A DNA stretch of 20,000 nucleotides from IMG/VR virus record IMGVR_UViG_3300025767_000006, one strand, 5' to 3'. Shown here one piece after another: positions 5,233 to 20,000 of the stretch. Both the position numbers and the translations under genes were made by a program. The first letter of the stretch is position 1. The number at the start of each line of letters is the position of its first letter. The notes beneath the pieces were generated by a model. That model was not told the DNA's origin. It saw nothing but the letters and a program-made list of their open reading frames with translations, and ran no database searches. The DNA comes from an uncultured virus (IMG/VR IMGVR_UViG_3300025767_000006) (taxonomy: Duplodnaviria; Heunggongvirae; Uroviricota; Caudoviricetes).

Positions 5233-5248
5233 AACAAACACTATCCTA

Positions 5249-7212: not shown

Positions 7213-7257
7213 TCTAAATCCTCATAAAATAGATAATAAAAGTTTGTATTTCAATCT

Positions 7258-7265: not shown

Positions 7266-7274
7266 AAAAAAACT

Positions 7275-7304: not shown

Positions 7305-7376
7305 AATAGAGTTAATCCGGAAAGAGGGGGATACCCTTAATATTCCGACAATATACTAACTGAAATGGAGAGAAAT

Positions 7377-7505
7377 ATGCTCAAAAAACTTGTTAAGTTA
7401 TTATCTAAAATGTTTAATAGTAAAGAAAAAACGCCAGGATATTTAGGTAGAGACATGTCAAAACATAGAGTACACTCCACGAAGTATGAAGATCTTTGTA
7501 AGTAA
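7377..7505 (+). CDS. 42-aa small hypothetical protein (not in the ORF track)
   Basis: GGAGAG RBS; MLKKLVKLLSKMFNSKEKTPGYLGRDMSKHRVHSTKYEDLCK*. Confidence 0.65.
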   Translation: MLKKLVKLLSKMFNSKEKTPGYLGRDMSKHRVHSTKYEDLCK

Positions 7506-7509
7506 GTAG

Positions 7510-7517
7510 TATAAATA
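7510..7517 (+). promoter_or_regulatory. T4-type late promoter (TATAAATA) upstream of the tmRNA
   Basis: Exact octamer a few nt before the tmRNA acceptor piece. Confidence 0.75.
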
Positions 7518-7521
7518 AAAA

Positions 7522-7760
7522 TGATTCAGTGAAACTGGATGGATGTAGGCTGGACGTGGGGGCAGTACCCACCGCCTCCACCATAAACACATTTACTGAG
7601 TGTGCTTATGATGGGGGCGAAATAGGATCGACAGATACGTGAAGGCAGCGGAGAATCACAAAAGTAAATGCAAACGATAACTTTGCTCCTCAAGATTACG
7701 CTCTAGCAGCATAGTCGGATAGGGTTTCGGTAGGTTTCCTAGTAACAGAATAACCTACCA
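7522..7760 (+). ncRNA. ssrA: circularly permuted two-piece tmRNA, alphaproteobacterial type
   Basis: T-arm GTGGG-GGCAGTA-CCCAC (7556-7572), CGCCTCC-A-CCA (7573-7583), intervening hairpin 7584-7612, then GGGGGCG (7613-7619) completing an acceptor stem with a G3.U70 pair; tag 7670-7714 reads ANDNFAPQDYALAA*. Outer ends approximate. Confidence 0.95.
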
Positions 7761-7771
7761 TTCGTTTTTTT
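7729..7771 (+). terminator. hairpin at the tmRNA 3' end followed by a T-run
   Basis: GGTAGGTT (7729-7736) pairs with AACCTACC (7752-7759), followed by TTCGTTTTTTT. Confidence 0.55.
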
Positions 7772-7787
7772 AAGAGGAAGTATCATT

Positions 7788-8132
7788 ATGAAAAGATATG
7801 TAATAATGTTTACTTTACTCGTTTGTGCTTCTACTTTAGTTTTTGCTAATGATGCTACTCCTCGGGTGAGCACAATGCAACTACCAATATTTTGTGGAAA
7901 AACAGATGATATTGTAGAAAATTTAAAAAATAAATATGATGAAGAAATTATATTTGTAGCACCTAGTGAAACATCGACTGGTGAAGGTCTTTTTCATTCA
8001 TTGTGGATTAATTATGATACATTAACATGGACATTTATAGTAGTAAATAAAACTCGTGGTACCACATGTGTAATTACATCTGGTGATAAATTTAGTACTA
8101 ACGTTTTAGCAAATAAAGGTACTCAAACGTAA
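7788..8132 (+). CDS. secreted hypothetical protein with a Cys pair
   Basis: Signal peptide ending VFA|N; PIFCG...WTFIV...TCVITSG; GAGG RBS. Confidence 0.8.
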   Translation: MKRYVIMFTLLVCASTLVFANDATPRVSTMQLPIFCGKTDDIVENLKNKYDEEIIFVAPSETSTGEGLFHSLWINYDTLTWTFIVVNKTRGTTCVITSGDKFSTNVLANKGTQT

Positions 8133-8588
8133 ATGGATGGAATTGAAGTTGAAGAGATCTCCTTTGATCAAATTGTAGAATATTGGAAAGAAGTAGATCA
8201 CTTCAATGATCCCAATAAAAACTATAGACAACTGGTTAGCCAATTAGGGCCATTTCGTTCTAGTATAGATAATCCTATATCCAAATGTTATGGGCTATAT
8301 GATCGACATCCTGAAGTAGACTTTGATGGGATTATAGGAGTTACTCAATTATATGAGTGGGATATATCTACCATTCGTTTTCGTACTATAAATATTCGTA
8401 AAGAATGGCGACATCAGGGATTAGGCGCTCTTCTTTTAGAAGAAGCTTATGAAAAACATTGGTCAAATTATCTAAAAATGTTTGGTTGGATGAAAATAAG
8501 TAAATTAGATTGGGCATTACAGAATGGATTCCAAACCATTTCTGGCACAGAACAAGATAATCACATTGGTGTGATAAAAGAGATGTGA
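8133..8588 (+). CDS. GNAT-family acetyltransferase
   Basis: Motif A IRKEWRHQGLGALLL; C-terminal QNGF. Confidence 0.8.
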   Translation: MDGIEVEEISFDQIVEYWKEVDHFNDPNKNYRQLVSQLGPFRSSIDNPISKCYGLYDRHPEVDFDGIIGVTQLYEWDISTIRFRTINIRKEWRHQGLGALLLEEAYEKHWSNYLKMFGWMKISKLDWALQNGFQTISGTEQDNHIGVIKEM

Positions 8589-8615
8589 TTAATCACGTTT
8601 AGGTTATATTATATT

Positions 8616-9251
8616 ATGCATGGATTATATTCAAATACTATTGAACGATTTTTAATTATCGATCAAGATGTACACTCTCTATACGAGACAGCCACAGTAC
8701 TTACCTCTAAAATATTGTGTAACATAATTCCAGTCACATTGCCTGAAATTGATAATAGCGTATGTACTAATTGGACACTAGGTAACCCAAAGGGATACCG
8801 CCAGTCTTCTCCATATCCATATCTAGTAATTAAACCACAAGATTCTTATGTAGATTTGGGTCCTCAGCAGAACACTCCACAAGACATCTTTGAGTCTCAT
8901 TTAGATTATATTCGCATGACGTTTGTAATTATAAAATCTACTATAAAAACTGAAATGGAACTTCCATCATCGTACGAATCTATTTTTTCTTTTGTAGATT
9001 CAAAGGGAATTGAAACATATAAAGATATGGGTTATCATGCATCTGATGGTGGTCACAAAGACTTTGAGAATGGATTTAAAGAAGCAATTTACGAGCTAAT
9101 TTATTATTCAAAAGATGTTGACGAATTATATGACAACATCATGGTTGCCTTTAGTAAATCTAAAACAAGCAACCTACGAAAAAGAAAATTTTATGAGAAT
9201 TTGAGTCGATATGCAAAACCGTTTTTTTCTAATACATTATACACCTTTTAA
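8616..9251 (+). CDS. hypothetical protein upstream of ATP pyrophosphatase 1
   Basis: 211-aa ORF overlapping the next gene; no recognised motif. Confidence 0.75.
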   Translation: MHGLYSNTIERFLIIDQDVHSLYETATVLTSKILCNIIPVTLPEIDNSVCTNWTLGNPKGYRQSSPYPYLVIKPQDSYVDLGPQQNTPQDIFESHLDYIRMTFVIIKSTIKTEMELPSSYESIFSFVDSKGIETYKDMGYHASDGGHKDFENGFKEAIYELIYYSKDVDELYDNIMVAFSKSKTSNLRKRKFYENLSRYAKPFFSNTLYTF

Positions 9252-10476
9252 ATTTTACCATCGTAAAGTTATGAAAAAATATAACTTTCAAAACGATGGA
9301 GCTAAGTTTTTTTATAATATCTCATTAGCATTTGGGTATAATTCATATTCTCCAAGAGATGGAGAGTGGGATACTCCATGGGGTGATGATTTGGTATTAC
9401 CGCCTGGTTATGATATGCCAGATTTATCAAAAGACTTTAATAAATCATTTGCGCAAATTAGTGATGAAACAGCTTTAAATATCGCAAAAAGAATTGATAA
9501 TACAGATGAACAATTTCTTATTCTATATTCTGGTGGTATAGATTCAACAGCAATTGTTGCGGCATTAATTAAAAATCTTACAGATAAACAATTAGATAAT
9601 ATTACAATTTCAATGAGTTTTGACTCAATTATTGAGAATGAATTCTTCTATAATAGATTTATTAAAGATAAACTTAAGATTCATAACAGTAAAGAATTTG
9701 ATATGAGACGTACTGTTGTGGAACAAAACTATACAGTTATTGTAGGTGATCAAGGTGATGCTCTATTTGGTACTGAATTAGGTACTAAATTATATCCGTC
9801 AATTCCTTATTATTTTGATTATACAAAAGAAGCATATGCGTTAAAAGATAATATTGACAACCCAGAAGTTCATTATAGCGAATATAAACAAGCAATTATT
9901 AAGTATTTTAATCTTTGTTTAGATGGTAGATATTTTAAATATTCTAATACCGAAAAATCATCTCTTGATAAAGCATTTGGCGAAATGTATTATAACAAAA
10001 TGGTTAGAAATATTGAAACAGCAAAGTGCAAAGTAACTACCTTACATGATTTCTTTTGGTGGATTATCTTTAATCCAAAATATATGCATTGTGCGCTAAG
10101 GGCTGGAAGCATTCAATCAACAGGTGTTGATCGTAGTAAAATATACGAAAAACAAATTAATTGGTTTAACGCTGTAGACTTTCAATTATGGTCTATGGTA
10201 AATAATAATAACGGCCAAAAAATCTTAGGCACAACACAGGGTCGTTATAAAATGGCAGCTAAAGACTATATACATAGTTTAGATGCCAATGATTGGTACT
10301 ATTGGTACAAAATGAAAATACCATCTAAACAAATCATTGTGAATCGGCATCGAATTGCGATAAACGATGAACTAGATAATATGTTTGGTTTAGATGAAAA
10401 TTATCAAATGAAATATTTTAACAACGAAGGAATAGAAGAGTATTTTTATGAAAAACTTAAAAACTTTAATGGTTAG
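9211..10476 (+). CDS. asparagine-synthetase-like N-type ATP pyrophosphatase lacking a glutaminase domain
   Basis: PP-loop LYSGGIDST; VGDQGDALFG matching the AsnB GEGADELFG motif; no N-terminal Cys/Ntn domain. Start could be 9271. Confidence 0.75.
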   Translation: MQNRFFLIHYTPFKFYHRKVMKKYNFQNDGAKFFYNISLAFGYNSYSPRDGEWDTPWGDDLVLPPGYDMPDLSKDFNKSFAQISDETALNIAKRIDNTDEQFLILYSGGIDSTAIVAALIKNLTDKQLDNITISMSFDSIIENEFFYNRFIKDKLKIHNSKEFDMRRTVVEQNYTVIVGDQGDALFGTELGTKLYPSIPYYFDYTKEAYALKDNIDNPEVHYSEYKQAIIKYFNLCLDGRYFKYSNTEKSSLDKAFGEMYYNKMVRNIETAKCKVTTLHDFFWWIIFNPKYMHCALRAGSIQSTGVDRSKIYEKQINWFNAVDFQLWSMVNNNNGQKILGTTQGRYKMAAKDYIHSLDANDWYYWYKMKIPSKQIIVNRHRIAINDELDNMFGLDENYQMKYFNNEGIEEYFYEKLKNFNG

Positions 10477-11377
10477 CGCGACAGTTGCGTTTACACTAGG
10501 GTCTACACACGCTTTTGCAAAAGAAGACATCTATATTCAAAGTCCGTATTCAGCGTCTCATGGCGGAACACCCGCGTATTTAGCAATTGTCGAAGAAGCT
10601 AATAAGATTCAAGATCAATTTCAATTTCATCTTGAAAATAAACCAGGTGGTCAGCAAATTATTGCTGTAAAACAAATGGATGCATCTCCACAAAATAGAT
10701 TATCTATTATCGCACCAAAATATGTAGAACATACTAGATCTGGTAAATTAGATCGTGAAAAATATGTTCCTATTCATGCTTTAGGATCTGCATGCTGGAT
10801 TGTAATTTCGAATCTAGGAGATTCAATTGAGGCTATGCGAAATGCTGGTAAAGATGTCATGACCGTTGGTGGTGTAGGTATTGGTAATGCTACGCATTTG
10901 ACATCTCTCCAAATTGGTGAAGCAGCTAAAACCGAAATCAATTACGTAATTTTTAAATCTAATTATGAAGGATTGGTGTTAATGGCAGGAGATGGATCAG
11001 TCAATATGGTAGTAGAAAAAGCTAAAAACTATATCCAAATGAAAACTAAAAATCCAAATATTCAAGCCGCCGCGGCTTCGTGTACTTCCCGCCATCCACT
11101 TCTTCCAGAAGTAGCAACATTAGCTGAACAGGGAGTATCTGCTCCACAAGTATTTAATATTACTGTTGCTTCTTCAGAAATGCCAACACTAAAAAGATTG
11201 AAGCTTGGATATGTATTAAATGCTGCTACAAAAAATCTTGGTAAAGATAAAGTATTTGGACTATCAGACATGAATTCACCGGTATTTGATGGTAAAGATA
11301 TTGGTGCATTCTATTTAGAAAATATTGCGATCGTTGAAAAGCTTTTAATTAAGCATAACGACAATATTAAGAAATAA
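10448..11377 (+). CDS. TctC/Bug-like tripartite tricarboxylate transporter substrate-binding protein (divergent)
   Basis: Signal peptide ending AFA|K; ENKPGG, GVGIGNATHL and RHPLLPEVATLAEQG motifs. Confidence 0.85.
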   Translation: MKNLKTLMVSATVAFTLGSTHAFAKEDIYIQSPYSASHGGTPAYLAIVEEANKIQDQFQFHLENKPGGQQIIAVKQMDASPQNRLSIIAPKYVEHTRSGKLDREKYVPIHALGSACWIVISNLGDSIEAMRNAGKDVMTVGGVGIGNATHLTSLQIGEAAKTEINYVIFKSNYEGLVLMAGDGSVNMVVEKAKNYIQMKTKNPNIQAAAASCTSRHPLLPEVATLAEQGVSAPQVFNITVASSEMPTLKRLKLGYVLNAATKNLGKDKVFGLSDMNSPVFDGKDIGAFYLENIAIVEKLLIKHNDNIKK

Positions 11378-11381
11378 AACA

Positions 11382-11389
11382 TATAAATA
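11382..11389 (+). promoter_or_regulatory. T4-type late promoter (TATAAATA)
   Basis: Exact octamer in the intergenic gap before the first DctP-like gene; AGGAG RBS at 11430-11434. Confidence 0.75.
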
Positions 11390-11441
11390 AAGTTGGTTGC
11401 AAACCAAAACGTAAACACGTGTTAACATTAGGAGTTTAACA

Positions 11442-12383
11442 ATGAAAACCATTCGTTGGGTTATTGCTCATGAGCCTATTGATTTGTTTCTGCGCGCTGC
11501 AGAAAGATTCAAAGCGCAAGTACTTGAGCAAACAAATGGTGCTTTAGACATCGAAATTCTTTCTTTGACTGAGTACTCAAATAAGTATAATGGTGGCGAA
11601 AAAGTCACTAAACAAGATCTTCTCCAGTTAATGGAAGATGGCGTTGTAGAAGCATCGCAGATGTATACTACATGGCTTGGTGATTGGAATAAAGATATGT
11701 ATGCACTTGACATGCCTTTCTTGTTCCGCGATCATGACCATGCAGATAAAGTTCTAGAAGGCTCTATCGGCCAGTCTCTATTGGATGGACTTAAGGCAAA
11801 ATCACCTGTACAAGGTTTGGCCTTTACATATTCAGGTGGATACCGTGTTATCCCGTCTGAAAAAGAATTAGATACCGTCGCTGCTTTTGAAGGTATGAGC
11901 ATTCGTACTTCTAAGTCTCCTGTTGCTGTAGACACATTTAAAGCTCTAGGCGCAAATGTTGTTGATTCAGTTGAACTTGAAGAAATGAATGAAGCACATG
12001 CAAATGGTGTTATTGATGGTGGTGAGTCTACATATGTACGTATTCTTCCTCTTAAGCAGGGTGAAGCATTTGGTACAGTTAATGACACTGCACATTCACT
12101 TTTCCTTACCTCAATTATTGTTGGTAAAGAATTCTACGCTGGTCTAGATGAAAAGACTCAAGCCGTGTTGAAAGACGCTGCATTGAATGCTGCTCGTTTA
12201 GAGCGTCGTGAATCAGTTGCTTCTATCGATGGTATCGTAGATCAATGTAAGACCCAAGGCATTAAAATTGTTAAGATGGCTGAATCAGAAACTGCTAAGT
12301 TCAAAGCAGCTACTGCTCATCTGTACACAAAGTACATGAATGTTTTCAGTGATAATATCATTGAGAAAATTCAAAAGTCTTAA
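11442..12383 (+). CDS. TRAP transporter DctP-like substrate-binding protein, no signal peptide
   Basis: LDMPFLFRDHDHA, GGYRVI, GMSIRT, FKALGAN and GVIDGGE motifs. Confidence 0.88.
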   Translation: MKTIRWVIAHEPIDLFLRAAERFKAQVLEQTNGALDIEILSLTEYSNKYNGGEKVTKQDLLQLMEDGVVEASQMYTTWLGDWNKDMYALDMPFLFRDHDHADKVLEGSIGQSLLDGLKAKSPVQGLAFTYSGGYRVIPSEKELDTVAAFEGMSIRTSKSPVAVDTFKALGANVVDSVELEEMNEAHANGVIDGGESTYVRILPLKQGEAFGTVNDTAHSLFLTSIIVGKEFYAGLDEKTQAVLKDAALNAARLERRESVASIDGIVDQCKTQGIKIVKMAESETAKFKAATAHLYTKYMNVFSDNIIEKIQKS

Positions 12384-12411
12384 GCTAAAATAAAAATAGG
12401 ATGTGATTTGA

Positions 12412-13206
12412 ATGATTGATTATGAAGTAAGAGTTGTCGATGACGCTGTTCCAGCTGATCTTAGACATTCAGTATGGGAATACCTATTAGAACAAACTTG
12501 GACAGCCGCTTGGAAAAGGCAGAAAACTAGCAACTTTCATGAAATTCATGAATATGTTCCTGGTAAATGGAAAGCCAATGATTACCCCAAGCGGCTGGAA
12601 GAGCCCCGCCATTTATTCATGCCAAGAGCTCACTTTGCTTCTGACGAAGAAAGTCTAAAAGCTCATGATCCAATTTATAAATTGTGGCAATGTATCAATA
12701 TGCAATTTGATGGTGAATTTGAAATTGCTGGTAAGCCCGAAGGCACAGTAGCAGAAAATTCTCCAGATGAGTATATAAAAGATAAATACACTGCACCACC
12801 AACATTAGATCCCAATATGGATCAGGGTTGGAGAGTGTACGCCGCGGCTCAGCCAAATGAACACTATAAGCATACTCATGGAATTCATCGAGATCAACCC
12901 GATGAATCGAATGACCGTACATATACATGTATGTATGTTGCTAACCCTGTATGGTATCCAACATGGTTTGCGGATAATATGTTCTACACCAGCAATCATA
13001 CAGAAACTGGTGACGACCAAAGATATCAAAAAGGTGGCCAACAACGAGGTTTTCCAATTGACTGGGGCGATACTTGTAAAGTAGTAAGTCCTAAGCCAGG
13101 TCGTATTATTTGTTATGATTCTCGTAGATTACACACAACTAGACCAGCTTCAATTTTTGCAGAAGCTGATCGCAAAGTAGTTACTTTTAGAATTCGCAAA
13201 AAATGA
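12412..13206 (+). CDS. 2OG-Fe(II) oxygenase family protein
   Basis: HxD...H triad (IHRD...LHTT), PKPGRIICYDSR, terminal RKVVTFR. Confidence 0.85.
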   Translation: MIDYEVRVVDDAVPADLRHSVWEYLLEQTWTAAWKRQKTSNFHEIHEYVPGKWKANDYPKRLEEPRHLFMPRAHFASDEESLKAHDPIYKLWQCINMQFDGEFEIAGKPEGTVAENSPDEYIKDKYTAPPTLDPNMDQGWRVYAAAQPNEHYKHTHGIHRDQPDESNDRTYTCMYVANPVWYPTWFADNMFYTSNHTETGDDQRYQKGGQQRGFPIDWGDTCKVVSPKPGRIICYDSRRLHTTRPASIFAEADRKVVTFRIRKK

Positions 13207-13811
13207 TTAATACATATATCTTTGTGGTAGATCAGGAAGAACACCTGATCTACTGCGAAGCTTCTAATTATGATATAGCAAATAAACTTTGTGAGTACGC
13301 ATTAAATACAAGTGTAATGCGAGTACGAACAACATCAACTTTTAATCCAAATATAGATCAAATTTTACTACAACAAAACGTAGGAATGGTAAGACCTGGT
13401 GAAGGTTCTGTCGCCAAACCTAGTGATATCGATGAATTCTATCAAATTCAAAAAGTAGATTTACTAGTATCTCATAAAACAATAAGATTTAAAAAGACAA
13501 AAAAGATATTAAATATAAAAAAAGAATGTCTTATTTTAATAGATGATATGGCCGAAAAATTTATGAGTAGATATACTGATCGCTATATTTTATATAATGA
13601 TAAAATGATAGAATGTTTTGCAAGTCAAGCAGGATTATCTTTTGAATTGGCTAAAAAATTTATTGATATGGAAAATGATTCTTATTTTTATGGTAAAGCT
13701 AAAATTGATGGTTCAGTTTATAAATTAATTCAAAAAGTAAATGACATTAGTAGTCAGCAAGAATTACCAAAACTAAAACGTCTAATTGATAATATGGTAT
13801 ACGTCAATTGA
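13203..13811 (+). CDS. hypothetical protein upstream of ATP pyrophosphatase 2
   Basis: 202 aa, with 4-bp overlaps on both sides. Confidence 0.75.
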   Translation: MINTYIFVVDQEEHLIYCEASNYDIANKLCEYALNTSVMRVRTTSTFNPNIDQILLQQNVGMVRPGEGSVAKPSDIDEFYQIQKVDLLVSHKTIRFKKTKKILNIKKECLILIDDMAEKFMSRYTDRYILYNDKMIECFASQAGLSFELAKKFIDMENDSYFYGKAKIDGSVYKLIQKVNDISSQQELPKLKRLIDNMVYVN

Positions 13812-14827
13812 TTCTACATGCTTCAACAATATTATTACGTGCTCTAGATACTCCTGATATGGTATTATACGAAAGAGCTATGCGCAAAATTATGCGTTTT
13901 AGTTGGATGTCAGATAGAACAGAAACATTAGTAACACCATTAAAGCAATATATGCCAGAAGAATATAAAATTCCTACAGTTAAAGCTGTTGGAACATTTG
14001 AAGATGTATTACAAAGTCGTTGTTTAGAATTAGTTGATACAGGTAAACATTTATATTTACAATGGAGTGGCGGAATTGATTCAACCTTAATGGTTATATC
14101 ATTTCTTAAGTCTAATATTAATTTAGATCAAATAACAATTGTAATGAATCGTGACTCTATAAAAGAGAATCCTAAATTTTATTACACTTATATTTTACCA
14201 AACTTTAAACTTTTATCAATTGAAAAACATTTATCTGAAGATAATGATGGTATTACTATTCAAGCAGAACATGCAGATCAAATTATTAGTGGCATGATGC
14301 TTTCACGAATTGATAAATCTTGGACTACTAAACCAGCAACAAAAACTAATCTATATAATGTTTGTGCTGAGTTGGGATTTGATAAAATTGCGGCTGAAGC
14401 ATTTATCAATGCTATGTTAAAAACTGGTAAAAGTTCTCCACGGCCAATTGATACTATTGAAGATTTTAGTTGGTGGTTTAATTTCAATTTTAGATGGTTA
14501 AACGCTAAAGAAAAATATAAGCCTAGATTGGGTTATCATAAAGAATTTGACACATTTTACTCTTCTCACGATATTCAAAGATGGTCAATCTTAAATAAAT
14601 CTCCAGATAAATCACTCTATAAAGATCTAATATATAATTATACAAAGGATAAAGACTATCATATTTACAAAAGAAAATGGCAGTCTATGGGCAAATTATT
14701 CTTTACAAATAAACCTGATATGATTGTATCTGAATCAAATTCTTTACAATCCTTTTATAAACCATTTGATACAGAGTTTATTAAACAATACTATGTTGAA
14801 GATAATGATTTTTGTGGATATGAATAA
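13808..14827 (+). CDS. asparagine-synthetase-like N-type ATP pyrophosphatase, paralogue of 9211-10476
   Basis: WSGGIDST, AEHADQI, DFSWWFNFN and DIQRWS parallel the motifs of the first copy; TTG start uncertain. Confidence 0.75.
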   Translation: MILHASTILLRALDTPDMVLYERAMRKIMRFSWMSDRTETLVTPLKQYMPEEYKIPTVKAVGTFEDVLQSRCLELVDTGKHLYLQWSGGIDSTLMVISFLKSNINLDQITIVMNRDSIKENPKFYYTYILPNFKLLSIEKHLSEDNDGITIQAEHADQIISGMMLSRIDKSWTTKPATKTNLYNVCAELGFDKIAAEAFINAMLKTGKSSPRPIDTIEDFSWWFNFNFRWLNAKEKYKPRLGYHKEFDTFYSSHDIQRWSILNKSPDKSLYKDLIYNYTKDKDYHIYKRKWQSMGKLFFTNKPDMIVSESNSLQSFYKPFDTEFIKQYYVEDNDFCGYE

Positions 14828-15243
14828 TGACTAAAAAACAATATACTTCTATATTACTTTTTATGATTGGATTTATATTTTTAATTATGTCATCTAATAT
14901 GCAATTAGGAACACTTGCAAATATGGGTCCAGGAATGTACCCATTTATTATTTCTATTATTTTAATTATTATTTCAACAGTATACGCATTTCGATCACAA
15001 AATGATAATGAAGTATTACATTTAGAAATATTTGTACTTATTAAAATGCTGGGTGCTGTATTTTTAGGAATTCTTGCGTTTAAGTATTTTGGTATTTTAG
15101 CTTCTATTGTGGTTTTAGTTCCGTTAGTTTCAACTCTTCATAAAGACTTTACATGGAAATCATGTATTATCTCAACAGCCGTTTCTTCGGTCTTAGCAAT
15201 TATATTAAAACTCACAGTACTTAAAGCATTACCATTATGGTAG
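14827..15243 (+). CDS. tctB: tripartite tricarboxylate transporter small membrane subunit
   Basis: Four or more TM helices; LGTLANMGPGMYP; C-terminal LP; directly upstream of tctA. Confidence 0.8.
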   Translation: MTKKQYTSILLFMIGFIFLIMSSNMQLGTLANMGPGMYPFIISIILIIISTVYAFRSQNDNEVLHLEIFVLIKMLGAVFLGILAFKYFGILASIVVLVPLVSTLHKDFTWKSCIISTAVSSVLAIILKLTVLKALPLW

Positions 15244-16658
15244 AGCAATTAATATTTTTATTAATTGGATGTCTTGCTGGCACTGCCGTTGGTGTATTAC
15301 CTGGCCTCGGTCCATCAACAACAATTGCATTATTATTGCCAATTACTTTTGGAATGGATCCTATTTCTGGTATTATTATGTTAGCTGGAATCTATTATGG
15401 ATCTCAATATGGTGGATCTACTACAGCGATTCTATTAAATACACCAGGCGAAAATAGTGCTATTATGACTTGTATTGATGGTCATAAATTAGCAAAGAAA
15501 GGATTAGCTGGAAAAGCCATTATGGTATCAGCTATTTCTTCCTTTATTGCTGGTATTATTATGGTAATTGCTATGGCAATTATTTCTCCACCATTAGCTG
15601 ACCTTGCTTTTAAATTTGGTCCAGCTGAATATACTGCGTTATTATGTTTAGCATTTGTTGGTGTTACATCTATTCTAAGTGATAATCTTTTAACTGGATT
15701 AGCGGCAGTTATGGTTGGTATATTGACAGGAACTGTTGGTGTTGATTTAAATAGTGGACTTGAAAGATTTGTATTCAATATTGATGATCTATATGATGGA
15801 ATAAGTTTTGTTGCAGCTGCAATTGGAATGGTTGCATTCGCCGAAGTATTTCGAAATTTATCATTAAATACTATGTCTATTGTACAGACTAAAAATTTAG
15901 CAATTCTTCCAACAAAAGAAGATTTAAAACAATTTGTTCCCGCAGCATTGAGAGGAACTCTTATTGGTGGGTTTCTTGGTATTATTCCAGGTGGTGGACT
16001 AACAGGAGCAACATATGCTGCTTATACTGTTGAAAAAAATATTAATAAAAATTTAGGCACCGGAGTTATAGAAGGAGTTGCTGCTCCAGAAGCTGCAAAT
16101 AATGCTGCTGCTCAAGGCAGTCTTATTCCTTTATTAAGTCTTGGATTGCCAGAAAATATGGCAATGACTTTGATTCTTGGTGCCATGATTGTATTTGGAA
16201 TTGTTCCTGGTCCATTAGTAATTCAAAACCATCCTGATTTATTTTGGTCTTTAGTTTACAGTATTTTCTTTGGAAATATTATTCTTCTTATTTTAAATTA
16301 TCCGTTGATTAAAATATGGGTAAGCTTAATTAAAATACCATACACAATATTATATCCTATTATTATTTCTGTTTGTTTTATTGGAACGTATGGAGTAAAT
16401 AATAACTCAAATGATTTAATTATTCTTTGTGCTTTTATTGCTCTCGGTTATCTGTTTATGAAATTAGATATTAATGTTGTCCCATTTATTTTAGGATTAA
16501 TTCTAGGTCCAATGCTTGAAGAATATTTTAGAAGATCTCTTAGTATTTCTCAAGGGGACTTTTCTATCTTTATACATAGTAATATAGCAATAGGAATATG
16601 GTTATGTATATTGGCAATCATATCAGCTAATATGTACAGGATGAAAAAGAATGTTTAG
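15237..16658 (+). CDS. tctA: tripartite tricarboxylate transporter large permease
   Basis: GVLPGLG, YYGSQYGGSTTAILLNTPGE, GVAAPEAANNA and PFILGLILGPMLEEYFRRSL motifs. Confidence 0.95.
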   Translation: MVEQLIFLLIGCLAGTAVGVLPGLGPSTTIALLLPITFGMDPISGIIMLAGIYYGSQYGGSTTAILLNTPGENSAIMTCIDGHKLAKKGLAGKAIMVSAISSFIAGIIMVIAMAIISPPLADLAFKFGPAEYTALLCLAFVGVTSILSDNLLTGLAAVMVGILTGTVGVDLNSGLERFVFNIDDLYDGISFVAAAIGMVAFAEVFRNLSLNTMSIVQTKNLAILPTKEDLKQFVPAALRGTLIGGFLGIIPGGGLTGATYAAYTVEKNINKNLGTGVIEGVAAPEAANNAAAQGSLIPLLSLGLPENMAMTLILGAMIVFGIVPGPLVIQNHPDLFWSLVYSIFFGNIILLILNYPLIKIWVSLIKIPYTILYPIIISVCFIGTYGVNNNSNDLIILCAFIALGYLFMKLDINVVPFILGLILGPMLEEYFRRSLSISQGDFSIFIHSNIAIGIWLCILAIISANMYRMKKNV

Positions 16659-16690
16659 ATCAATTTTATTTGCGATGAATTGGGATTACG

Positions 16691-17416
16691 ATGACAGAAA
16701 TCAAAAATAAAGGTGATGGTGAAAATACTGGTAACTGGTTTGAGAAGTATTCTCGTAAGCCAGAAAAGTTTACACCCACGCAAGAAGATCTTATGTGCGA
16801 GCTACAATTGCAAGCAATGGGTGAATTCGAACTATTAAAACCAAGAATTAATTTAGATCAATTAAATAAAGAATTATCGTTATTTGATAACGATTGGGAA
16901 CCATACTTGAAAAAAGCATGGGCACCAAATAATAGAGAAGGTCTTGTTCTAGTTGGATTAGAAGGAAGTTCTCATTCGGAAAATCTTTCTATCCCACAAT
17001 CTAGAATTAAGACTGGAAACGAGTTTTTACTTGACCAAGACTTCAACCATAAGACAGACGTATATCATGCTCTAACTTCTCTCCATGAGTTGTTGGAACC
17101 ATTTGACAAACTTGGTAGAACTTTCTTAGTTAAAGTAAATGCGGGTGGGTATTTCCCACCGCATAAAGACTATCCACTTATTACTAGAAAAACTATTCGT
17201 ATCGTAGCTTTCTTATCGAAAGCATGTGATAGTGATTCTTTTGAATGGAGTCAATCTGGCCAAAAACAGGATATTATTCCTGGTCGGGCTTATTACGTTG
17301 ATACAATGAAAACGCATAGAACTCATTCTTGGGAAGATGGATCAATTCATTTGGTTGTTAACGTTCCTAAGACTTGGGAGAATGTTCTTAAATTGTGCTC
17401 AATGACAAATAAGTAA
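16691..17416 (+). CDS. aspartyl/asparaginyl beta-hydroxylase-like 2OG-Fe(II) oxygenase
   Basis: GGYFPPHKD...YYVDTMKTH...IHLVVN double-stranded beta-helix pattern. Confidence 0.75.
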   Translation: MTEIKNKGDGENTGNWFEKYSRKPEKFTPTQEDLMCELQLQAMGEFELLKPRINLDQLNKELSLFDNDWEPYLKKAWAPNNREGLVLVGLEGSSHSENLSIPQSRIKTGNEFLLDQDFNHKTDVYHALTSLHELLEPFDKLGRTFLVKVNAGGYFPPHKDYPLITRKTIRIVAFLSKACDSDSFEWSQSGQKQDIIPGRAYYVDTMKTHRTHSWEDGSIHLVVNVPKTWENVLKLCSMTNK

Positions 17417-17419
17417 AAA

Positions 17420-17427
17420 TATAAATA
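17420..17427 (+). promoter_or_regulatory. T4-type late promoter (TATAAATA)
   Basis: Exact octamer in the intergenic gap; near-copy TATAAATC at 17432-17439. Confidence 0.7.
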
Positions 17428-17472
17428 ATCGTATAAATCAAATAAATCCCATTAAAAGGAAAAAAAAATATT

Positions 17473-18426
17473 ATGTTAAAATATATTATGACTTTCGTTA
17501 TTGCTGTGCTAGCAAACACGACTGTGTATGCATGGGAACCAACAGGTCCTATTACCGTTACGGTTCCTTCTTCTCCAACATCTCTTCATGCAACTGGCTT
17601 TATGTCAATTGAAGAAGCACTTGGTGTTGAAGTAATCTATGAGTTTAAACCAGGTGCCGCTGGTATTATCGGAACAAAACATTTTCTTAAATCTTACCCA
17701 GCAGATGGCCATCACGTGCTTTTGACTACAAGCATTAGTCATGTAATGGGTGAAGTCACCAACCCAGAGTTGGTTGATTACGATTGGGCGAATGATTTCG
17801 AATTTACTTCTGGCTTGATCACTTCTAGTATTGTGATCGCCGTAAAGCACGACACACCTATTAATTCATTAGCCGCATTGGTTGAATGGATTCGCACTTC
17901 AAATAAACCACTAAATATCACAACAACATTCCCTAATCAGATTGTTGCAACAAATCTTATTTTAGAAGCTGAAGGTATCTCAAAAGATAAAGTCAACTTT
18001 GTAAAATATAGAAAATCAGCAGAAGCTATTAAAGACGTAGCCGCTGGTGAAGTTGATATTTGGGTAGGTGGTATGCCACCAACAGTTGCGTTCTATAATA
18101 GTGGTGATATTAAGTATATTGCGGTAATGTCTAATGGAAGACTACCAGCATTGCCTAATACTGAAGCTGTTAATGAAACATATCCAGGAATTTTACAAAT
18201 GTCTACAGTCGGTGCCCTTTTAGCAAAAGGTACTGATCCAGAAATTGTAAAATGGTATGAAATTAATTTAGCAAAAGCCGTACAAAGTGAAAAAGCTAAG
18301 GCAGAACGCGAAAAAAGAATGATAAATATAGATAAAGCAGCACTTAATTCGCAAGGATTAAAGAATGCGTATATTGCTAATAGAAAACTATTAGAGCCAG
18401 GATACAGAGAAATTTTCGGAGAGTAA
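17473..18426 (+). CDS. TctC/Bug-like substrate-binding protein (second, divergent)
   Basis: Signal peptide ending VYA|W; PTGPITVTVP, KPGAAGIIG, PADGH, AIKDVAAGEVD and RLPALPN motifs. Confidence 0.88.
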   Translation: MLKYIMTFVIAVLANTTVYAWEPTGPITVTVPSSPTSLHATGFMSIEEALGVEVIYEFKPGAAGIIGTKHFLKSYPADGHHVLLTTSISHVMGEVTNPELVDYDWANDFEFTSGLITSSIVIAVKHDTPINSLAALVEWIRTSNKPLNITTTFPNQIVATNLILEAEGISKDKVNFVKYRKSAEAIKDVAAGEVDIWVGGMPPTVAFYNSGDIKYIAVMSNGRLPALPNTEAVNETYPGILQMSTVGALLAKGTDPEIVKWYEINLAKAVQSEKAKAEREKRMINIDKAALNSQGLKNAYIANRKLLEPGYREIFGE

Positions 18427-18432
18427 ACTAAA

Positions 18433-19389
18433 ATGGAAACTAAACAACTTACGTGGGTTATTGCACACGAACCATTCAATGTATTTTTGCGCGCAGCAAA
18501 AGTATTTAGTGCAAAAATCAAAGATAGCACTGATGGTAGATATGATCTACGGGTTTTAAGTCTATCCGAATGGAATAAAGAAACTGGTAGTAACTTATCT
18601 ATTCACTCTAGTGATAGAGAAAAAGTTGTTAGTTTAGTTAACTCTGGCAATATTGATATTGCTACAACATATGTAGAAACTCTAGGGAAGTTTGAAAAGA
18701 ACATGTTTTCCCTAGGGCTTCCATTCTTATTCGAAGATCATGGCCATGCCGAAAAAGTACTCGATGGAAAAATTGGTCAAAATCTGTTCTCATGGCTCGA
18801 GAAAAAATCTAATTTAAAAGGTTTAGCTTTTACATATTCAGGTGGATATAGGATTATTCCTTCAACAAAGACTCTAGAAAGACTTGAAGATTTCTATGAT
18901 CTTTCTATTGGTTGCTCCAAAAGCCCAGTATCTCAATCTATGTTTGAAGCAGTGCAAGCTAAACCAGTTCAAATGTTAGTTGATGAAATTAATCAAGCAA
19001 TGAAAGATGGTCGTATTGATGCTGGTACTACCACATATGCTCGATTCTTTGCTAGACAGCAGCATGAAGTAGCTAAATATATTAATGACACTTCACACTC
19101 ATTATTCCTTACTTCAATTGTAATGAATAAACAACTATGGGATTCTATGTCTGCTAATGATCAACAAGCATGGAAAGAAGCTTCATTAGAAGCAGCTAAA
19201 ATCGAAAGAGAAGATTCACTGGCAGATAATGTTAGAGTTCAAACAGAAGCAAAAGCTTTTGGCATTGATACTGTTGTTATGTCAGAAAAAGAAAGAGCAA
19301 GATTTTCTACAGCTCTTAAATCAGTTTATCCGCAATATGAGTCATTCTTTGAGAATGGCCTAGTTGCAGATATTAAAGGAGCAGCATAA
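18433..19389 (+). CDS. TRAP DctP-like substrate-binding protein (second), no signal peptide
   Basis: Shares WVIAHEP, LPFLF, GLAFTYSGGYR and NDTxHSLFLTSI with 11442-12383. Confidence 0.88.
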   Translation: METKQLTWVIAHEPFNVFLRAAKVFSAKIKDSTDGRYDLRVLSLSEWNKETGSNLSIHSSDREKVVSLVNSGNIDIATTYVETLGKFEKNMFSLGLPFLFEDHGHAEKVLDGKIGQNLFSWLEKKSNLKGLAFTYSGGYRIIPSTKTLERLEDFYDLSIGCSKSPVSQSMFEAVQAKPVQMLVDEINQAMKDGRIDAGTTTYARFFARQQHEVAKYINDTSHSLFLTSIVMNKQLWDSMSANDQQAWKEASLEAAKIEREDSLADNVRVQTEAKAFGIDTVVMSEKERARFSTALKSVYPQYESFFENGLVADIKGAA

Positions 19390-19682
19390 TGTATAAAACG
19401 GTTATGACATTTACTCGTCCTAGCGTTGATGTACCATTTTGGCAACCAACAAATGACATGATTCTACACACACAATCAGAATATAAGATTGTTCGTGAGC
19501 GCGCTATGTCTGAAGATGGTTTGGTTTTAACTTTGACAAACTATGCAGAAACCGAAGAAATTTGGTTAGCATATAAAGCAGAGTCTGAAAGTGGTGATCA
19601 AGACGCAGCTAATGCAAGAACAGCCTATAATGATGAAAATGGTATTGTTCGCACATGGGTATTTAAAGGCGAAGTAGAGTAA
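19389..19682 (+). CDS. small acidic hypothetical protein
   Basis: 97 aa, TAATG-coupled to the DctP-like gene. Confidence 0.75.
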   Translation: MYKTVMTFTRPSVDVPFWQPTNDMILHTQSEYKIVRERAMSEDGLVLTLTNYAETEEIWLAYKAESESGDQDAANARTAYNDENGIVRTWVFKGEVE

Positions 19683-20000
19683 TTAGACTAAGTCTTTTAC
19701 TTTTTCAAAAATTTCATCCCAAGATAGGAATGGTCCAGTATCAGTATTGGCCATTCCTATTTGTATGGTAAGCCGATCAATTCCATTCTGTGTATCAGTA
19801 CCATGCGGCAATTCTGAATTAATAATAGTAGGTATACCATCATGAATATGTGTGTAAATCGGATCTATTTTTAATTTTCTTGAAGCTTTAATATAAGCAT
19901 CTCTATCTCCAGACAATCGTAATTTTTTTATATAGTCAGGTTCTTCATACCAATAAGTTGGTGCTGGATCTGGTGATAGTGGTATCATTAATACAGCTGT
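19683..20000 (-). CDS. C-terminal part of a protein running off the window; possible cupin/2OG-Fe(II) oxygenase fold
   Basis: Frame is open to the window edge (...TAVLMIPL); PTIINSELPHGT...RLTIQI resembles the distal His/Arg of 2OG oxygenases. Confidence 0.55.
   Translation of the reverse strand, partial: TAVLMIPLSPDPAPTYWYEEPDYIKKLRLSGDRDAYIKASRKLKIDPIYTHIHDGIPTIINSELPHGTDTQNGIDRLTIQIGMANTDTGPFLSWDEIFEKVKDLV

What the first reader, a model, noticed from the sequence alone, without database searches (positions are those of the whole stretch)
8133..20000. Phage island coupling carboxylate-transporter components with adenylating, hydroxylating and acetylating enzymes
Seen: a co-oriented, tightly coupled run of GNAT, [~200-aa unknown + SGGIDS enzyme], TctC, DctP, 2OG oxygenase, [~200-aa unknown + SGGIDS enzyme], TctB, TctA, a second oxygenase, TctC, DctP and a 97-aa ORF, with internal T4-type late promoters. 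Known: TTT and TRAP systems import carboxylates; AsnB-fold enzymes adenylate a carboxylate to form an amide or lactam; 2OG oxygenases consume the dicarboxylate 2-oxoglutarate. Inference: this is a dedicated virus-encoded system for acquiring or sensing a carboxylate and chemically tailoring a metabolite, peptide or virion protein. I do not recognise it as a described pathway.
Basis: partly seen in the sequence, partly recalled or inferred. Interest (0 to 1): 0.9.

Follow-up and report, generated by a model that had tools for sequence, protein, structure and literature searches.

The report
Phage carboxylate-uptake and amide-ligase island
A marine T4-like phage carries a 12-kb gene block that joins a complete small-acid importer, two transporter-type binding proteins that have lost their export signal, and two orphan ATP-using ligases each with a private partner protein; the same building blocks recur in many uncultured phages and no function has been described for them.

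Summary
Window 7788-19682 is a co-oriented, tightly coupled run of GNAT, [partner + PP-loop enzyme], TctC, DctP, oxygenase, [partner + PP-loop enzyme], TctB, TctA, oxygenase, TctC, DctP and a 97-aa ORF. It sits inside a true T4-like myovirus contig, and two other assemblies are collinear with it at 99.9%.

New here:
- The PP-loop enzymes have the asparagine-synthetase synthetase-domain fold (Z 14.1 to TsnB9) but no glutaminase domain.
- Each has a conserved upstream partner (85 of 101 cases in 85 loci).
- Both DctP homologues, and in effect all 120 best relatives, lack a signal peptide. No DctQ/DctM is on the contig, so they are probably cytoplasmic rather than TRAP transporter parts.
- TctC, TctB and TctA form a full TTT importer.
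- The sub-modules recur in mosaic form in IMG/VR contigs. The ligase module also occurs in seven bacterial MAG loci, some of them beside CoA-ligase, SDR and BKACE genes.

Best reading (about 0.45): import, cytoplasmic capture and ATP-dependent amidation and tailoring of a carboxylate metabolite. DNA hypermodification, peptide modification and unlinked auxiliary genes remain possible.

This scan noted the same island earlier on other DNA. I found no description in print.

The parts
7788..8132 (+). 114-aa protein with an N-terminal signal-like hydrophobic stretch; first gene of the co-oriented run
   Evidence: ORF and sequence. PHROG 25396, unknown function, 2.7e-7. Homologues lie near TctA in L096 and L097.
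8133..8588 (+). GNAT-type acetyltransferase (probable)
   Evidence: Pfam Acetyltransf_7 8.4e-5, 23.3 bits, below the cut-off of 27. Homologues in L102, L103 and L114 lie beside Oxy2-like genes. L102:6577-7056 scores 31.5 bits.
8616..9251 (+). Partner protein A1 (211 aa) of ligase PP1; no known family
   Evidence: No Pfam, NCBIfam or PHROG hit. Its family lies directly upstream of a PP homologue in 55 of 57 cases. There are 225 representative clusters, and the 150 listed are 94-297 aa with no sign of a fusion. The AF2 model has pLDDT 84 and no convincing fold match, best Z 7.3.
9211..10476 (+). PP1: stand-alone PP-loop (SGGIDS) enzyme with the asparagine-synthetase synthetase-domain fold
   Evidence: AF2 pLDDT 88.8. 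VIA-align: Z 14.1 to TsnB9 7ylz_B (271 aligned, rmsd 4.8), 11.6 to human ASNS, 11.3 to beta-lactam synthetase, 11.2 to carbapenam synthetase. Pfam Asn_synthase scores only 14.2 bits. 261 homologues, none with a precomputed Pfam domain among the 120 listed.
10448..11377 (+). TctC1: divergent TTT-type binding protein with a signal peptide
   Evidence: Pfam TctC 25 bits. PDB sequence hits: 7ndr 6.7e-7, Bug27 8e-6. Signal-like N-terminus in it and in its relatives, apart from one N-terminally cut ORF.
11382..11389 (+). TATAAATA, T4-type late-promoter-like box 53 nt before DctP1
   Evidence: A contig from an RNA library starts at 11436 (weak).
11442..12383 (+). DctP1: leaderless DctP-family binding protein
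   Evidence: Pfam DctP 2.4e-44. The ORF is maximal and starts MKTIRWVIAHEP. R135 aligns with the Arg of solved TRAP binding proteins. 118 of 120 best homologues carry the motif within the first 20 residues; of the other two, one has a variant of it at residue 6 and one has an over-long ORF call.
12412..13206 (+). Oxy1: probable 2OG/Fe(II) oxygenase
   Evidence: Pfam 2OG-FeII_Oxy_3 2.1e-4, 22.6 bits, below the cut-off of 27. HRD...H seen in the sequence. Homologues in 5 other viral loci.
13203..13811 (+). Partner protein A2 (202 aa) of ligase PP2
   Evidence: Matches the profile of the partner family that lies directly upstream of PP2-type genes (hmmsearch 4.7e-10; 16 of 17 adjacent). Not detectably related to A1.
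13808..14827 (+). PP2: second PP-loop (SGGIDS) enzyme, paralogue of PP1
   Evidence: BLASTP to PP1: 23% identity over 282 columns, E 6e-13. 4-nt overlap with partner A2 and 1-nt overlap with TctB.
14827..15243 (+). TctB small membrane subunit
   Evidence: Pfam TctB 9.7e-10, 39.2 bits, above the cut-off of 29.1.
15237..16658 (+). TctA large membrane subunit
   Evidence: Pfam TctA 1.2e-140, covering profile positions 1-423 of 423. 30 further IMG/VR loci hold relatives.
16691..17416 (+). Oxy2: probable 2OG/Fe(II) hydroxylase of the Asp/Arg-hydroxylase and proline-hydroxylase kind
   Evidence: H158, D160 and R170 are invariant, and the distal His is present in 5 of 5 full-length homologues. The profile hits 4p7w at E 0.0012 and 7v4o at 0.0017. 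Atlas neighbours are viral clusters, one of which has Asp_Arg_Hydrox in 11% of members.
17420..17427 (+). TATAAATA, late-promoter-like box 46 nt before TctC2
   Evidence: A contig from an RNA library starts at 17454 (weak).
17473..18426 (+). TctC2: TTT binding protein with a signal peptide
   Evidence: Pfam TctC 5.7e-26, 92.1 bits. N-terminus MLKYIMTFVIAVLANTTVYA.
18433..19389 (+). DctP2: second leaderless DctP-family protein
   Evidence: Pfam DctP 1.3e-46. 41% identical to DctP1. Starts METKQLTWVIAHEP.
19389..19682 (+). 97-aa ORF, last gene of the run, no family
   Evidence: One weak homologue in L025. Covered by contigs from an RNA library.

Best explanation
The island is a phage-run pathway for one carboxylate-bearing small molecule, or a small set of them.

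Inferred steps:
1. The secreted TctC proteins and the membrane pair TctB/TctA import the acid.
2. Inside the cell the two leaderless DctP-type proteins bind it or an intermediate. They keep the carboxylate-binding arginine.
3. The two AsnB-type PP-loop enzymes, each working with its own upstream partner protein, adenylate a carboxyl group and form an amide. They have no glutaminase domain, so the amine would be ammonia, an amino compound or an internal amine.
4. The two 2OG-type hydroxylases and the GNAT tailor the molecule.

Shown here: the folds and families, the missing signal peptides, the conserved gene pairs, and the recurrence of the modules.

Inferred only: physical hand-over between the parts, the chemistry, and the identity of the substrate.
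For: - Fold. PP1 matches the synthetase domains of TsnB9, ASNS, beta-lactam synthetase and carbapenam synthetase (Z 14.1 to 11.2). The PP-loop residues S107, G108, G109, D111 and S112 are invariant in 33 sequences.
- Partner pairing. 55 of 57, 14 of 15 and 16 of 17 members of three partner families lie within 150 bp of a PP gene, against 101 PP proteins in 85 loci. Partner A2 joins one of these families at 4.7e-10.
- DctP-like proteins. A leaderless DctP-like gene lies within 10 kb of the PP gene in 21 of 76 non-identical viral loci, most often directly after PP1 or after a TctC1-like gene. It is also present in 6 of 7 bacterial MAG loci. The family is 57-91% identical across 120 hits, all 297-336 aa. 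R135 is retained.
- Small-molecule context. In three low-GC MAG loci (Bdellovibrio, Pseudobdellovibrio and one unclassified bacterium) AMP-binding, SDR and BKACE genes flank the partner-PP1 pair and the DctP-like gene. In L087 the order is BKACE, DctP-like, AMP-binding, SDR, partner, PP1. In the 79 viral and 7 bacterial loci pooled, the neighbours include FA_desaturase (23 loci), GNAT (21), AMP-binding (11), BKACE (9) and SDR (9).
- Link to the importer. PP2, TctB and TctA overlap by 1 and 7 nt in the window. Among 30 other viral TctA loci, TctC-like occurs in 12, leaderless DctP-like in 6, PP-like in 5 and Oxy2-like in 5. L102 reads Oxy2, GNAT, a 243-aa ORF, Asn_synthase (PF00733, 6.5e-11), then TctB, TctA, DctP, TctC.
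- Oxygenase type. The Oxy2 profile is nearest to free-amino-acid hydroxylases, though only marginally (E 0.0012).
Against: - No substrate, product or interaction is shown.
- The full gene order is found only in near-identical contigs. TctA is absent from the 76 other PP loci within +/-10 kb, so the transporter and the ligases may be linked only loosely.
- 55 of 76 viral PP loci show no DctP-like gene within 10 kb.
- The partner proteins have no recognisable fold and could be substrates rather than subunits.
- Related loci hold many radical SAM/SPASM enzymes, which would also suit peptide chemistry.
- The contig has a DNA-modification gene set nearby, and a phage AsnB-type ligase acting on DNA is known (PMC12783734, sections 11 and 13 read).
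- Assignments for GNAT, Oxy1 and TctC1 fall below Pfam's own cut-offs.
Confidence: 0.45

Rival explanations
1. Peptide or protein modification. The upstream partner (or another phage or host protein) is the substrate or a carrier. The AsnB-type enzyme adenylates a protein carboxylate, or attaches an acid to a conserved lysine of the partner. The hydroxylases and the GNAT then act on protein-bound groups.
For: - Each ligase has a private, translationally coupled partner.
- The partner family has an invariant K32 within a nearly invariant LSSK stretch.
- Related loci hold radical SAM/SPASM enzymes, Asp_Arg_Hydrox, ClpP and a metallopeptidase.
- From my own knowledge: AsnB homologues cyclise lasso peptides.
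Against: - The partners are 200-255 aa and are predicted to fold well (pLDDT 84), unlike short precursor peptides.
- Only C50 is nearly invariant among possible protease-type residues, with no conserved His.
- The bacterial operon with BKACE, SDR and a CoA ligase points to small-acid chemistry.
- This reading gives the binding proteins and the importer no role.
Confidence: 0.2
2. A loose collection of separate auxiliary genes. The TTT system and binding proteins simply raise host uptake of an organic acid (for energy, or as 2-oxoglutarate supply). The ligase pairs, oxygenases and GNAT serve unrelated ends and are neighbours only because this is a hypervariable region.
For: - Modules occur in many different combinations, and most PP loci lack TctA.
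- tctA alone was listed as a putative viral auxiliary gene on SUP05 viral contigs (PMC4164917, passage read).
Against: - PP2-TctB-TctA and Oxy1-partner2-PP2 overlap in the window.
- PP1 followed by a leaderless DctP-like gene, with or without a TctC-like gene between, recurs across contigs whose PP1 is only 35-41% identical.
- A leaderless binding protein cannot serve uptake from the periplasm.
Confidence: 0.15
3. DNA hypermodification. PP1 and PP2 ligate an amine to a carboxyl-bearing base in phage DNA, as CmoY does with 5-carboxymethylcytosine. The island supplies or tailors the amine.
For: - SpCmoY is a stand-alone phage asparagine-synthetase homologue of 271 aa that makes an amide on DNA (PMC12783734, sections 11 and 13 read; gene located).
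- The own contig encodes a C5-cytosine-methylase-like protein, a TET-associated glycosyltransferase, dCMP deaminase, a thymidylate-synthase-like protein and DUF1599. These lie about 2.7-7 kb beyond the window's first base.
Against: - The PP1 profile against SpCmoY shares only the PP-loop (hhalign probability 7%, 18 columns). PP2 against SpCmoY gives BLASTP E 0.12.
- No CmoA is on the contig. The methylase-like protein has CPCAG where CmoX has SPPC (motif from the paper).
- No methylase or CmoA family is among the 75 commonest neighbour clusters of PP genes.
- Homologues in bacterial loci lie among CoA ligase, SDR and BKACE genes.
Confidence: 0.1
4. Cell-envelope remodelling. The enzymes amidate, hydroxylate and acylate a lipid or peptidoglycan precursor of the host.
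For: - Neighbour clusters include FA_desaturase-type membrane oxygenases (23 loci), D-Ala-D-Ala carboxypeptidase (10) and beta-lactamase-fold proteins (8).
- One bacterial locus each holds MBOAT and Asp_Arg_Hydrox.
- From my own knowledge: AsnB-type enzymes amidate peptidoglycan in some bacteria, and Asp/Arg-hydroxylase and desaturase-family enzymes hydroxylate lipid A and ornithine lipids.
Against: - None of those envelope genes is in this window.
- PP1 has no membrane segment in the model.
- No tool result ties the ligases to a lipid or a muropeptide.
Confidence: 0.1

Closest known systems
Tripartite tricarboxylate transporter TctABC (Salmonella TctABC; Bordetella Bug binding proteins)
   Same: TctA matches at full length, TctB passes its cut-off, and TctC2 has a signal peptide. 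TctC1 hits solved TTT binding proteins by sequence.
   Different: It is phage-borne, has two very different TctC proteins (no significant BLASTP match, best E 0.042), and is translationally coupled to a ligase gene. TctA is 41-51% identical to 28 of the 30 other viral copies and about 50% identical to Burkholderiales proteins.
TRAP transporter binding proteins (DctP family, e.g. SiaP, TeaA)
   Same: Clear DctP domain, and the conserved Arg aligns with that of solved members.
   Different: No signal peptide in either copy, nor in effect in any of the 120 best relatives (118 by the motif test). No DctQ or DctM on the contig. Invariant H10, E11, D97, H98, H100 and H218, which I do not recall from transport-type members. 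Gene partners are enzymes rather than membrane subunits.
Asparagine synthetase B family enzymes that make amides or lactams (AsnB, TsnB9, beta-lactam synthetase, carbapenam synthetase)
   Same: PP-loop SGGxDS and the synthetase-domain fold, including its helical part (model residues 7-410 aligned to TsnB9 148-607).
   Different: No N-terminal Ntn domain. Below Pfam's Asn_synthase cut-off. Always paired with a separate 200-255 aa protein that has no known fold.
CmoY, the phage ATP-dependent amide ligase acting on 5-carboxymethylcytosine in DNA (Synechococcus phage S-B43, PMC12783734)
   Same: A phage-encoded, stand-alone AsnB-type ligase without a glutaminase domain.
   Different: No sequence relation beyond the PP-loop. 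No CmoA or CmoX beside it. Different neighbours (binding proteins, a transporter, a partner protein).

Membership tests
TTT transporter (TctABC) | Large membrane subunit TctA | tested here: met
   PF01970, 469.4 bits, profile positions 1-423 of 423.
TTT transporter (TctABC) | Small membrane subunit TctB next to TctA | tested here: met
   PF07331, 39.2 bits against a cut-off of 29.1; 7-nt overlap with TctA.
TTT transporter (TctABC) | Secreted TctC binding protein | tested here: met
   TctC2 scores 92.1 bits against a cut-off of 27 and has a hydrophobic N-terminus. TctC1 is below the cut-off (25 bits) but hits 7ndr at 6.7e-7.
TTT transporter (TctABC) | Transport of a carboxylate | not testable with these tools
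   Needs an uptake assay.
TRAP transporter | DctP-family binding domain with the carboxylate-binding Arg | tested here: met
   PF03480 at 2.4e-44 and 1.3e-46. R135 aligns with Arg in 4p47 and 4xfe and is kept in at least 97% of 131 sequences.
TRAP transporter | Binding protein exported to the periplasm (signal peptide) | tested here: not met
   Maximal ORFs start 5-7 residues before the first conserved strand. The same holds in 25 locus-encoded relatives and in 118 of 120 database relatives by the motif test; by eye one of the other two is also leaderless and one looks like an over-long ORF call.
TRAP transporter | DctQ and DctM membrane subunits | tested here: not met
   No PF06808 or PF04290 match on the 97.9-kb contig, with controls ringing. 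The contig is estimated 57% complete, so absence from the whole phage is not proven.
Asparagine synthetase B family | PP-loop SGGxDS ATP-pyrophosphatase motif | tested here: met
   SGGIDS in PP1 and PP2. S107, G108, G109, D111 and S112 are invariant in 33 sequences.
Asparagine synthetase B family | Synthetase-domain fold | tested here: met
   Z 14.1 (271 aligned, rmsd 4.8) to 7ylz_B; 11.6, 11.3 and 11.2 to ASNS, beta-lactam synthetase and carbapenam synthetase. Foldseek was only marginal, best E 2e-3.
Asparagine synthetase B family | Match to Pfam Asn_synthase over its cut-off | tested here: not met
   14.2 bits against 21 for PP1 and no match for PP2. A ligase at the equivalent position in L102 scores 42.9 bits but is not detectably related to PP1 beyond the loop region.
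Asparagine synthetase B family | N-terminal Ntn glutaminase domain with a nucleophilic Cys | tested here: not met
   PP1 aligns only to residues 148-607 of TsnB9. The upstream partner's model gave no Ntn-type match, best Z 7.3 to unrelated helical proteins; for the partner itself that result is inconclusive.
CmoY-type DNA amide ligase | Sequence kinship with SpCmoY | tested here: not met
   hhalign probability 7%, 18 columns. BLASTP E 0.12.
CmoY-type DNA amide ligase | Neighbouring CmoA and CmoX (SPPC motif) | tested here: not met
   No TIGR00740 match on the contig. The C5-methylase-like protein has CPCAG and is 23% identical to SpCmoX, E 1e-6. The contig is incomplete.
2OG/Fe(II) oxygenases | HxD...H iron-binding triad and a family match | tested here: inconclusive
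   Oxy1: HRD...H in the sequence, Pfam 22.6 bits against 27. Oxy2: H158 and D160 invariant plus the distal His; profile E 0.0012 to 4p7w. No structure was predicted for either.
GNAT acetyltransferases | Match to a GNAT model over its cut-off | tested here: inconclusive
   23.3 bits against 27. The homologue L102:6577-7056 scores 31.5 bits.

The most novel reading that the evidence does not exclude
A transporter-type binding protein has been moved into the cytoplasm. There it serves as the substrate-capturing subunit of an orphan AsnB-type ligase and its private partner protein. Large aquatic phages, and a few bacteria including Bdellovibrio-like ones, use this three-part machine to turn an imported acid into an amide-containing product of unknown role, such as an antimetabolite, an osmolyte, a signal, or a carrier-protein-bound intermediate fixed to the partner's invariant lysine. 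In this phage the machine is fed by its own TTT importer.
Probability: 0.3. Interest if true: 0.85.

Novelty: new variant of a known kind. Interest (0 to 1): 0.7.

Why it matters
Phage auxiliary genes are usually single enzymes borrowed from host pathways. Here a phage carries a whole importer, four binding proteins and two ligase pairs, and the building blocks are shared by hundreds of uncultured phage contigs but by no cultured phage in GenBank that I could find.

If the parts work together, three things would follow:
- a new use of the TRAP binding-protein fold inside the cell;
- a new branch of asparagine-synthetase-type ligases with obligate partners;
- a metabolite that abundant marine phages make or consume during infection.

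The proteins are small and probably soluble, so ligand identification by co-purification is directly feasible.

Tried and rejected
- **Partner as the split-off Ntn domain of AsnB.** The N-terminal M-x-G-I/L-Y looked like MCGI. However, most homologues have 20-45 residues before it, the model is a small alpha/beta part plus a helical bundle, and no Ntn match came back (best Z 7.3). Not supported.
- **Membership in the CmoY family.** Rejected.
- **Other searches on the partner.** The Atlas search gave scores of 0.86 or less and TM below 0.4, so no lead. Profiles of PP1 and of the partner against PDB sequences gave only PP-loop hits at E 0.02 or worse, and nothing for the partner. No fused partner-ligase form is among the 150 best of 225 representative clusters.
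- **Relation between partner families.** Partner A1 against A2, and against the 243-aa protein of L102, showed no relation. Partner clusters 14 and 17 are related (hhalign 82%), but cluster 1 is not related to them.
- **GenBank phages.** No DNA match to the island and no tblastn match to PP1. The TctA and DctP hits there are 25-39% identical and lie in records that look bacterial.
- **Tet_JBP search of the contig.** Nothing found, but the control rang nowhere, so this says nothing.
- **The count 'TctA in 0 of 79 loci'.** This understates. My script dropped ORFs containing N, which removed TctA from the near-identical loci L007 and L009 (13 and 8 N).
- **RNA evidence.** One metatranscriptome run holds 7% of the sampled words. 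Its contigs cover only 11436-11592, 17454-17728 and 18474-19703, plus two tiny pieces. DNA carry-over cannot be excluded, and the uncovered parts prove nothing.
- **Literature.** Five searches found only a mention of tctA as a domain hit on SUP05 viral contigs (PMC4164917, passage read) and its listing in a review table (PMC6359870, passage read). They found no description of the ligase, partner and DctP module. Supplements were not opened.

Full report
**What is there.**
The window is the reverse strand of bases 41077-61076 of a 97,886-bp IMG/VR virus record, estimated 57% complete. From 7788 to 19682 every substantial ORF lies on the + strand. The order is:
- a 114-aa protein with a signal-like N-terminus;
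- a GNAT-like protein;
- a 211-aa protein and a 421-aa SGGIDS protein;
- TctC, then DctP;
- a 2OG-oxygenase-like protein;
- a 202-aa protein and a 339-aa SGGIDS protein;
- TctB, then TctA;
- a 241-aa protein;
- TctC, then DctP;
- a 97-aa ORF.

TctA (1.2e-140), the two DctP proteins (2.4e-44 and 1.3e-46), TctC2 (5.7e-26) and TctB (1e-9) pass Pfam's cut-offs. GNAT, TctC1 and Oxy1 fall just below them. Gene junctions are tight: 4-nt overlaps at Oxy1/partner2 and partner2/PP2, 1 nt at PP2/TctB and 7 nt at TctB/TctA.

**It is a phage and the join is real.**
PHROG matches across the contig include the T4-type major head protein (3.8e-160), portal, scaffold, prohead protease, sheath, tube, large terminase, gp55-type late sigma factor (1.9e-52), RegA, the clamp and its loader, DNA polymerase, UvsX, a DnaB-like helicase and ribonucleotide reductase. 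Phage genes flank the island on both sides. Two other IMG/VR contigs are collinear with window 1-16963 and 1-12680 at 99.9% identity. At least ten public marine or seawater runs hold half or more of the island's sampled words, spread over 12 studies, three of which may be the source. A chimeric or bacterial origin is therefore unlikely.

**The SGGIDS enzymes.**
PP1 and PP2 are paralogues (23% identity, E 6e-13). PP1 has 261 homologues in the 5.8-billion-protein collection, and none of the 120 listed has a precomputed Pfam domain. With a 33-sequence alignment AlphaFold gave pLDDT 88.8.

An all-against-representatives structural search put these first: TsnB9 (Z 14.1, 271 residues, rmsd 4.8), human asparagine synthetase (11.6), beta-lactam synthetase (11.3) and carbapenam synthetase (11.2). 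Generic PP-loop enzymes followed at Z of about 8.5 and below. Foldseek alone was marginal. The alignment covers only the synthetase half of those enzymes, and no glutaminase domain is present.

**Private partners.**
I clustered 2,082 ORFs from 85 loci that hold a PP homologue (79 viral, of which 3 are near-identical to the window, plus 7 bacterial; one locus lacked a called PP ORF).
- The 211-aa protein's family is the commonest neighbour: 57 loci, with 55 of 57 members within 150 bp upstream and 56 on the same strand.
- Two further families of 215-244 aa fill the same position for more distant PP branches (14 of 15 and 16 of 17 adjacent). The window's 202-aa protein belongs to one of them (hmmsearch 4.7e-10).
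- Together, 85 of the 101 PP proteins have such an upstream neighbour.

The A1-type and A2-type partners are not detectably related. The A1 partner's model (pLDDT 84) is a small alpha/beta part followed by a helical bundle and matched nothing convincingly. Its family has 225 representative clusters, and all 150 listed are short stand-alone proteins.

**The binding proteins.**
Both TctC proteins start with a signal-like hydrophobic segment, as do their relatives in other loci apart from one N-terminally cut ORF.

Both DctP proteins start directly with the first conserved strand (M-K-T-I-R-W-V-I-A-H-E-P). The ORFs are already maximal, so there is no room for a signal peptide. The same is true of 25 relatives in fetched loci. 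Among the 120 best database relatives, 118 carry the motif within the first 20 residues; one more has a variant of it at residue 6, and the last looks like an over-long ORF call.

It keeps the arginine that binds the carboxylate in solved TRAP proteins. It adds invariant H10, E11, D97, H98, H100 and H218. No DctM or DctQ is on the contig. I therefore read these proteins as cytoplasmic carboxylate binders, not TRAP transporter parts.

**Recurrence.**
- Among the 76 viral PP loci that are not copies of the window, a leaderless DctP-like gene lies within 10 kb in 21, a TctC1-like gene in 11, Oxy1 in 5 and TctC2 in 3. The usual order is PP1, optionally TctC1-like, then DctP-like.
- Of seven bacterial MAG loci (Bdellovibrio, Pseudobdellovibrio, a Pseudobdellovibrionaceae MAG, Burkholderiales, Alphaproteobacteria, Xanthobacteraceae and one unclassified bacterium; GC 0.33-0.65), five have the partner directly upstream of PP1 and six have the DctP-like gene.
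- In three low-GC MAG loci (Bdellovibrio, Pseudobdellovibrio and the unclassified bacterium) AMP-binding, SDR and BKACE genes flank the partner-PP1 pair and the DctP-like gene. In L087 the order is BKACE, DctP-like, AMP-binding enzyme, SDR, partner, PP1. Fatty-acid-desaturase-type oxygenases lie near in two of them, and radical SAM enzymes and an Asp/Arg hydroxylase in L087.
- The same families are among the commonest neighbours across the 79 viral and 7 bacterial loci pooled: desaturase-type in 23 loci, GNAT in 21, AMP-binding in 11, B12-radical SAM in 10, BKACE in 9 and SDR in 9. These names come from one representative per cluster.
- A TctA profile found 30 more IMG/VR loci. Within them TctB occurs in 24, TctC-like in 12, leaderless DctP-like in 6, PP-like in 5, Oxy2-like in 5 and GNAT in 3. 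Several of these loci are pairs of near-identical contigs.
- One of them (L102) reads Oxy2, GNAT, a 243-aa ORF, a 433-aa protein that does pass Pfam Asn_synthase (6.5e-11), then TctB, TctA, DctP and TctC.

So the sub-modules are co-conserved, but as a mosaic. The exact 12-gene order is seen only in near-identical contigs.

**Oxygenases and GNAT.**
- Oxy2 has invariant H158, D160 and R170, and a distal His in all five full-length homologues. Its profile is nearest, marginally, to L-proline cis-4-hydroxylase (E 0.0012) and a beta-hydroxylase (0.0017). Atlas neighbours are viral clusters, one with Asp_Arg_Hydrox in 11% of members.
- Oxy1 has HRD...H and a sub-threshold prolyl-hydroxylase-type match.
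- GNAT is sub-threshold here but supported by a homologue.

**Expression signals.**
TATAAATA is no more frequent than chance (5 against 4.24). But two copies sit in the only gaps longer than 50 nt within the island, 53 and 46 nt before DctP1 and TctC2, and the phage has a late sigma factor. A sigma-70-like site (TTTACA, 17 nt, TATAAT, with TG) lies at 7276-7304. In one metatranscriptome run, assembled contigs cover only 11436-11592, 17454-17728 and 18474-19703, which are the stretches just downstream of those two boxes. This is a weak hint of late transcription of the binding-protein genes. DNA carry-over is not excluded.

**How it most likely works.**
The best-supported reading (about 0.45) has four steps:
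1. TctC and TctBA import an organic or amino acid.
2. The leaderless DctP-type proteins capture it or an intermediate in the cytoplasm.
3. The partner-ligase pairs adenylate a carboxyl group and form an amide.
4. The hydroxylases and the GNAT tailor the product.

The shown parts are the families, the folds, the missing leaders and the gene linkage. The chemistry and the hand-over between parts are inferred.

The rivals are:
- peptide or protein modification, with the partner as substrate or carrier (0.2);
- unlinked auxiliary genes (0.15);
- DNA hypermodification in the manner of CmoY (0.1);
- envelope remodelling (0.1).

The DNA reading deserves mention. The contig has a C5-methylase-like gene, a TET-associated glycosyltransferase, dCMP deaminase and DUF1599 a few kb beyond the window's first base, and a phage AsnB-type DNA ligase is known (PMC12783734, sections 11 and 13 read). 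Against it, PP1 and PP2 share only the PP-loop with SpCmoY, no CmoA is present, and the methylase-like protein lacks the SPPC motif.

**Novelty.**
No cultured phage in the GenBank collection has a PP1 relative. Five literature searches found only tctA listed as a domain hit on SUP05 viral contigs. Two earlier reports of this scan described the same island on near-identical DNA. One of them supplied the CmoY lead that I tested. I class the island as a new variant of known kinds: a TTT importer, an AsnB-type ligase and a DctP fold in an undescribed combination and cellular location.

**Limits.**
- The contig is incomplete.
- Neighbour families were named from single representatives.
- The viral status of related loci rests on IMG/VR.
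- Three family assignments are sub-threshold.
- No interaction or ligand was tested.

Noticed in passing
window 7491-7759 (+): A permuted (two-piece) tmRNA gene lies just upstream of the island. Rfam alpha_tmRNA scores 102.6 bits against a gathering score of 50, E 7e-29, and tmRNA_permuted scores 93.8 bits at 7522-7714. ARAGORN missed it. The tag reads ANDNFAPQDYALAA (read by eye). A TATAAATA box at 7510-7517 ends 5 nt before the permuted-model match. The tmRNA type hints at an alphaproteobacterial host. It also explains the 1115x depth of bin 7434-7867 in one seawater run.
   Followed up: partly
own contig G000:C1 63772-68516 (loci L005:3772-8516), about 2.7-7.4 kb beyond window base 1: A DNA-modification gene set: a C5-cytosine-methylase-like protein (PF00145, 3.6e-17, motif CPCAG), a TET-associated glycosyltransferase (PF20691), dCMP deaminase, a weak thymidylate-synthase-like protein (possibly a pyrimidine hydroxymethylase), a cytidylyltransferase-like protein and DUF1599. 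No Tet_JBP or CmoA was found, but the Tet control rang nowhere.
   Followed up: partly
own contig G000:C1 5501-18886 (locus L002): A glycan-type gene run in the same phage: GT25, polysaccharide pyruvyl transferase, GT8, a methyltransferase, a cupin, an NAD-dependent epimerase and a radical SAM enzyme.
   Followed up: no
window 11442-12383 and 18433-19389; alignment of 131 relatives: The leaderless DctP-like family has invariant H10, E11, D85, D90, D97, H98, H100, R200, N214, T216, H218, E254 and R255 besides the canonical R135. The histidine and aspartate cluster could be a metal site or a catalytic site.
   Followed up: no
L061-L078 (distant PP-loop branch in IMG/VR): In this branch a 218-aa cupin_2 protein lies directly downstream of the PP-loop gene in 15 of 16 cases.
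   Followed up: no
IMG/VR contig behind L031, L050 and L053 (244 kb): One large viral contig carries at least three separate PP1-type genes, each with its own upstream partner-family ORF.
   Followed up: no
window 235-906, 2140-2613, 3057-3644, 3880-4314: Ordinary phage genes lie left of the island: ThyX (5.3e-41), DUF3310, DUF1353 and a staphylococcal-nuclease-like protein.
   Followed up: no
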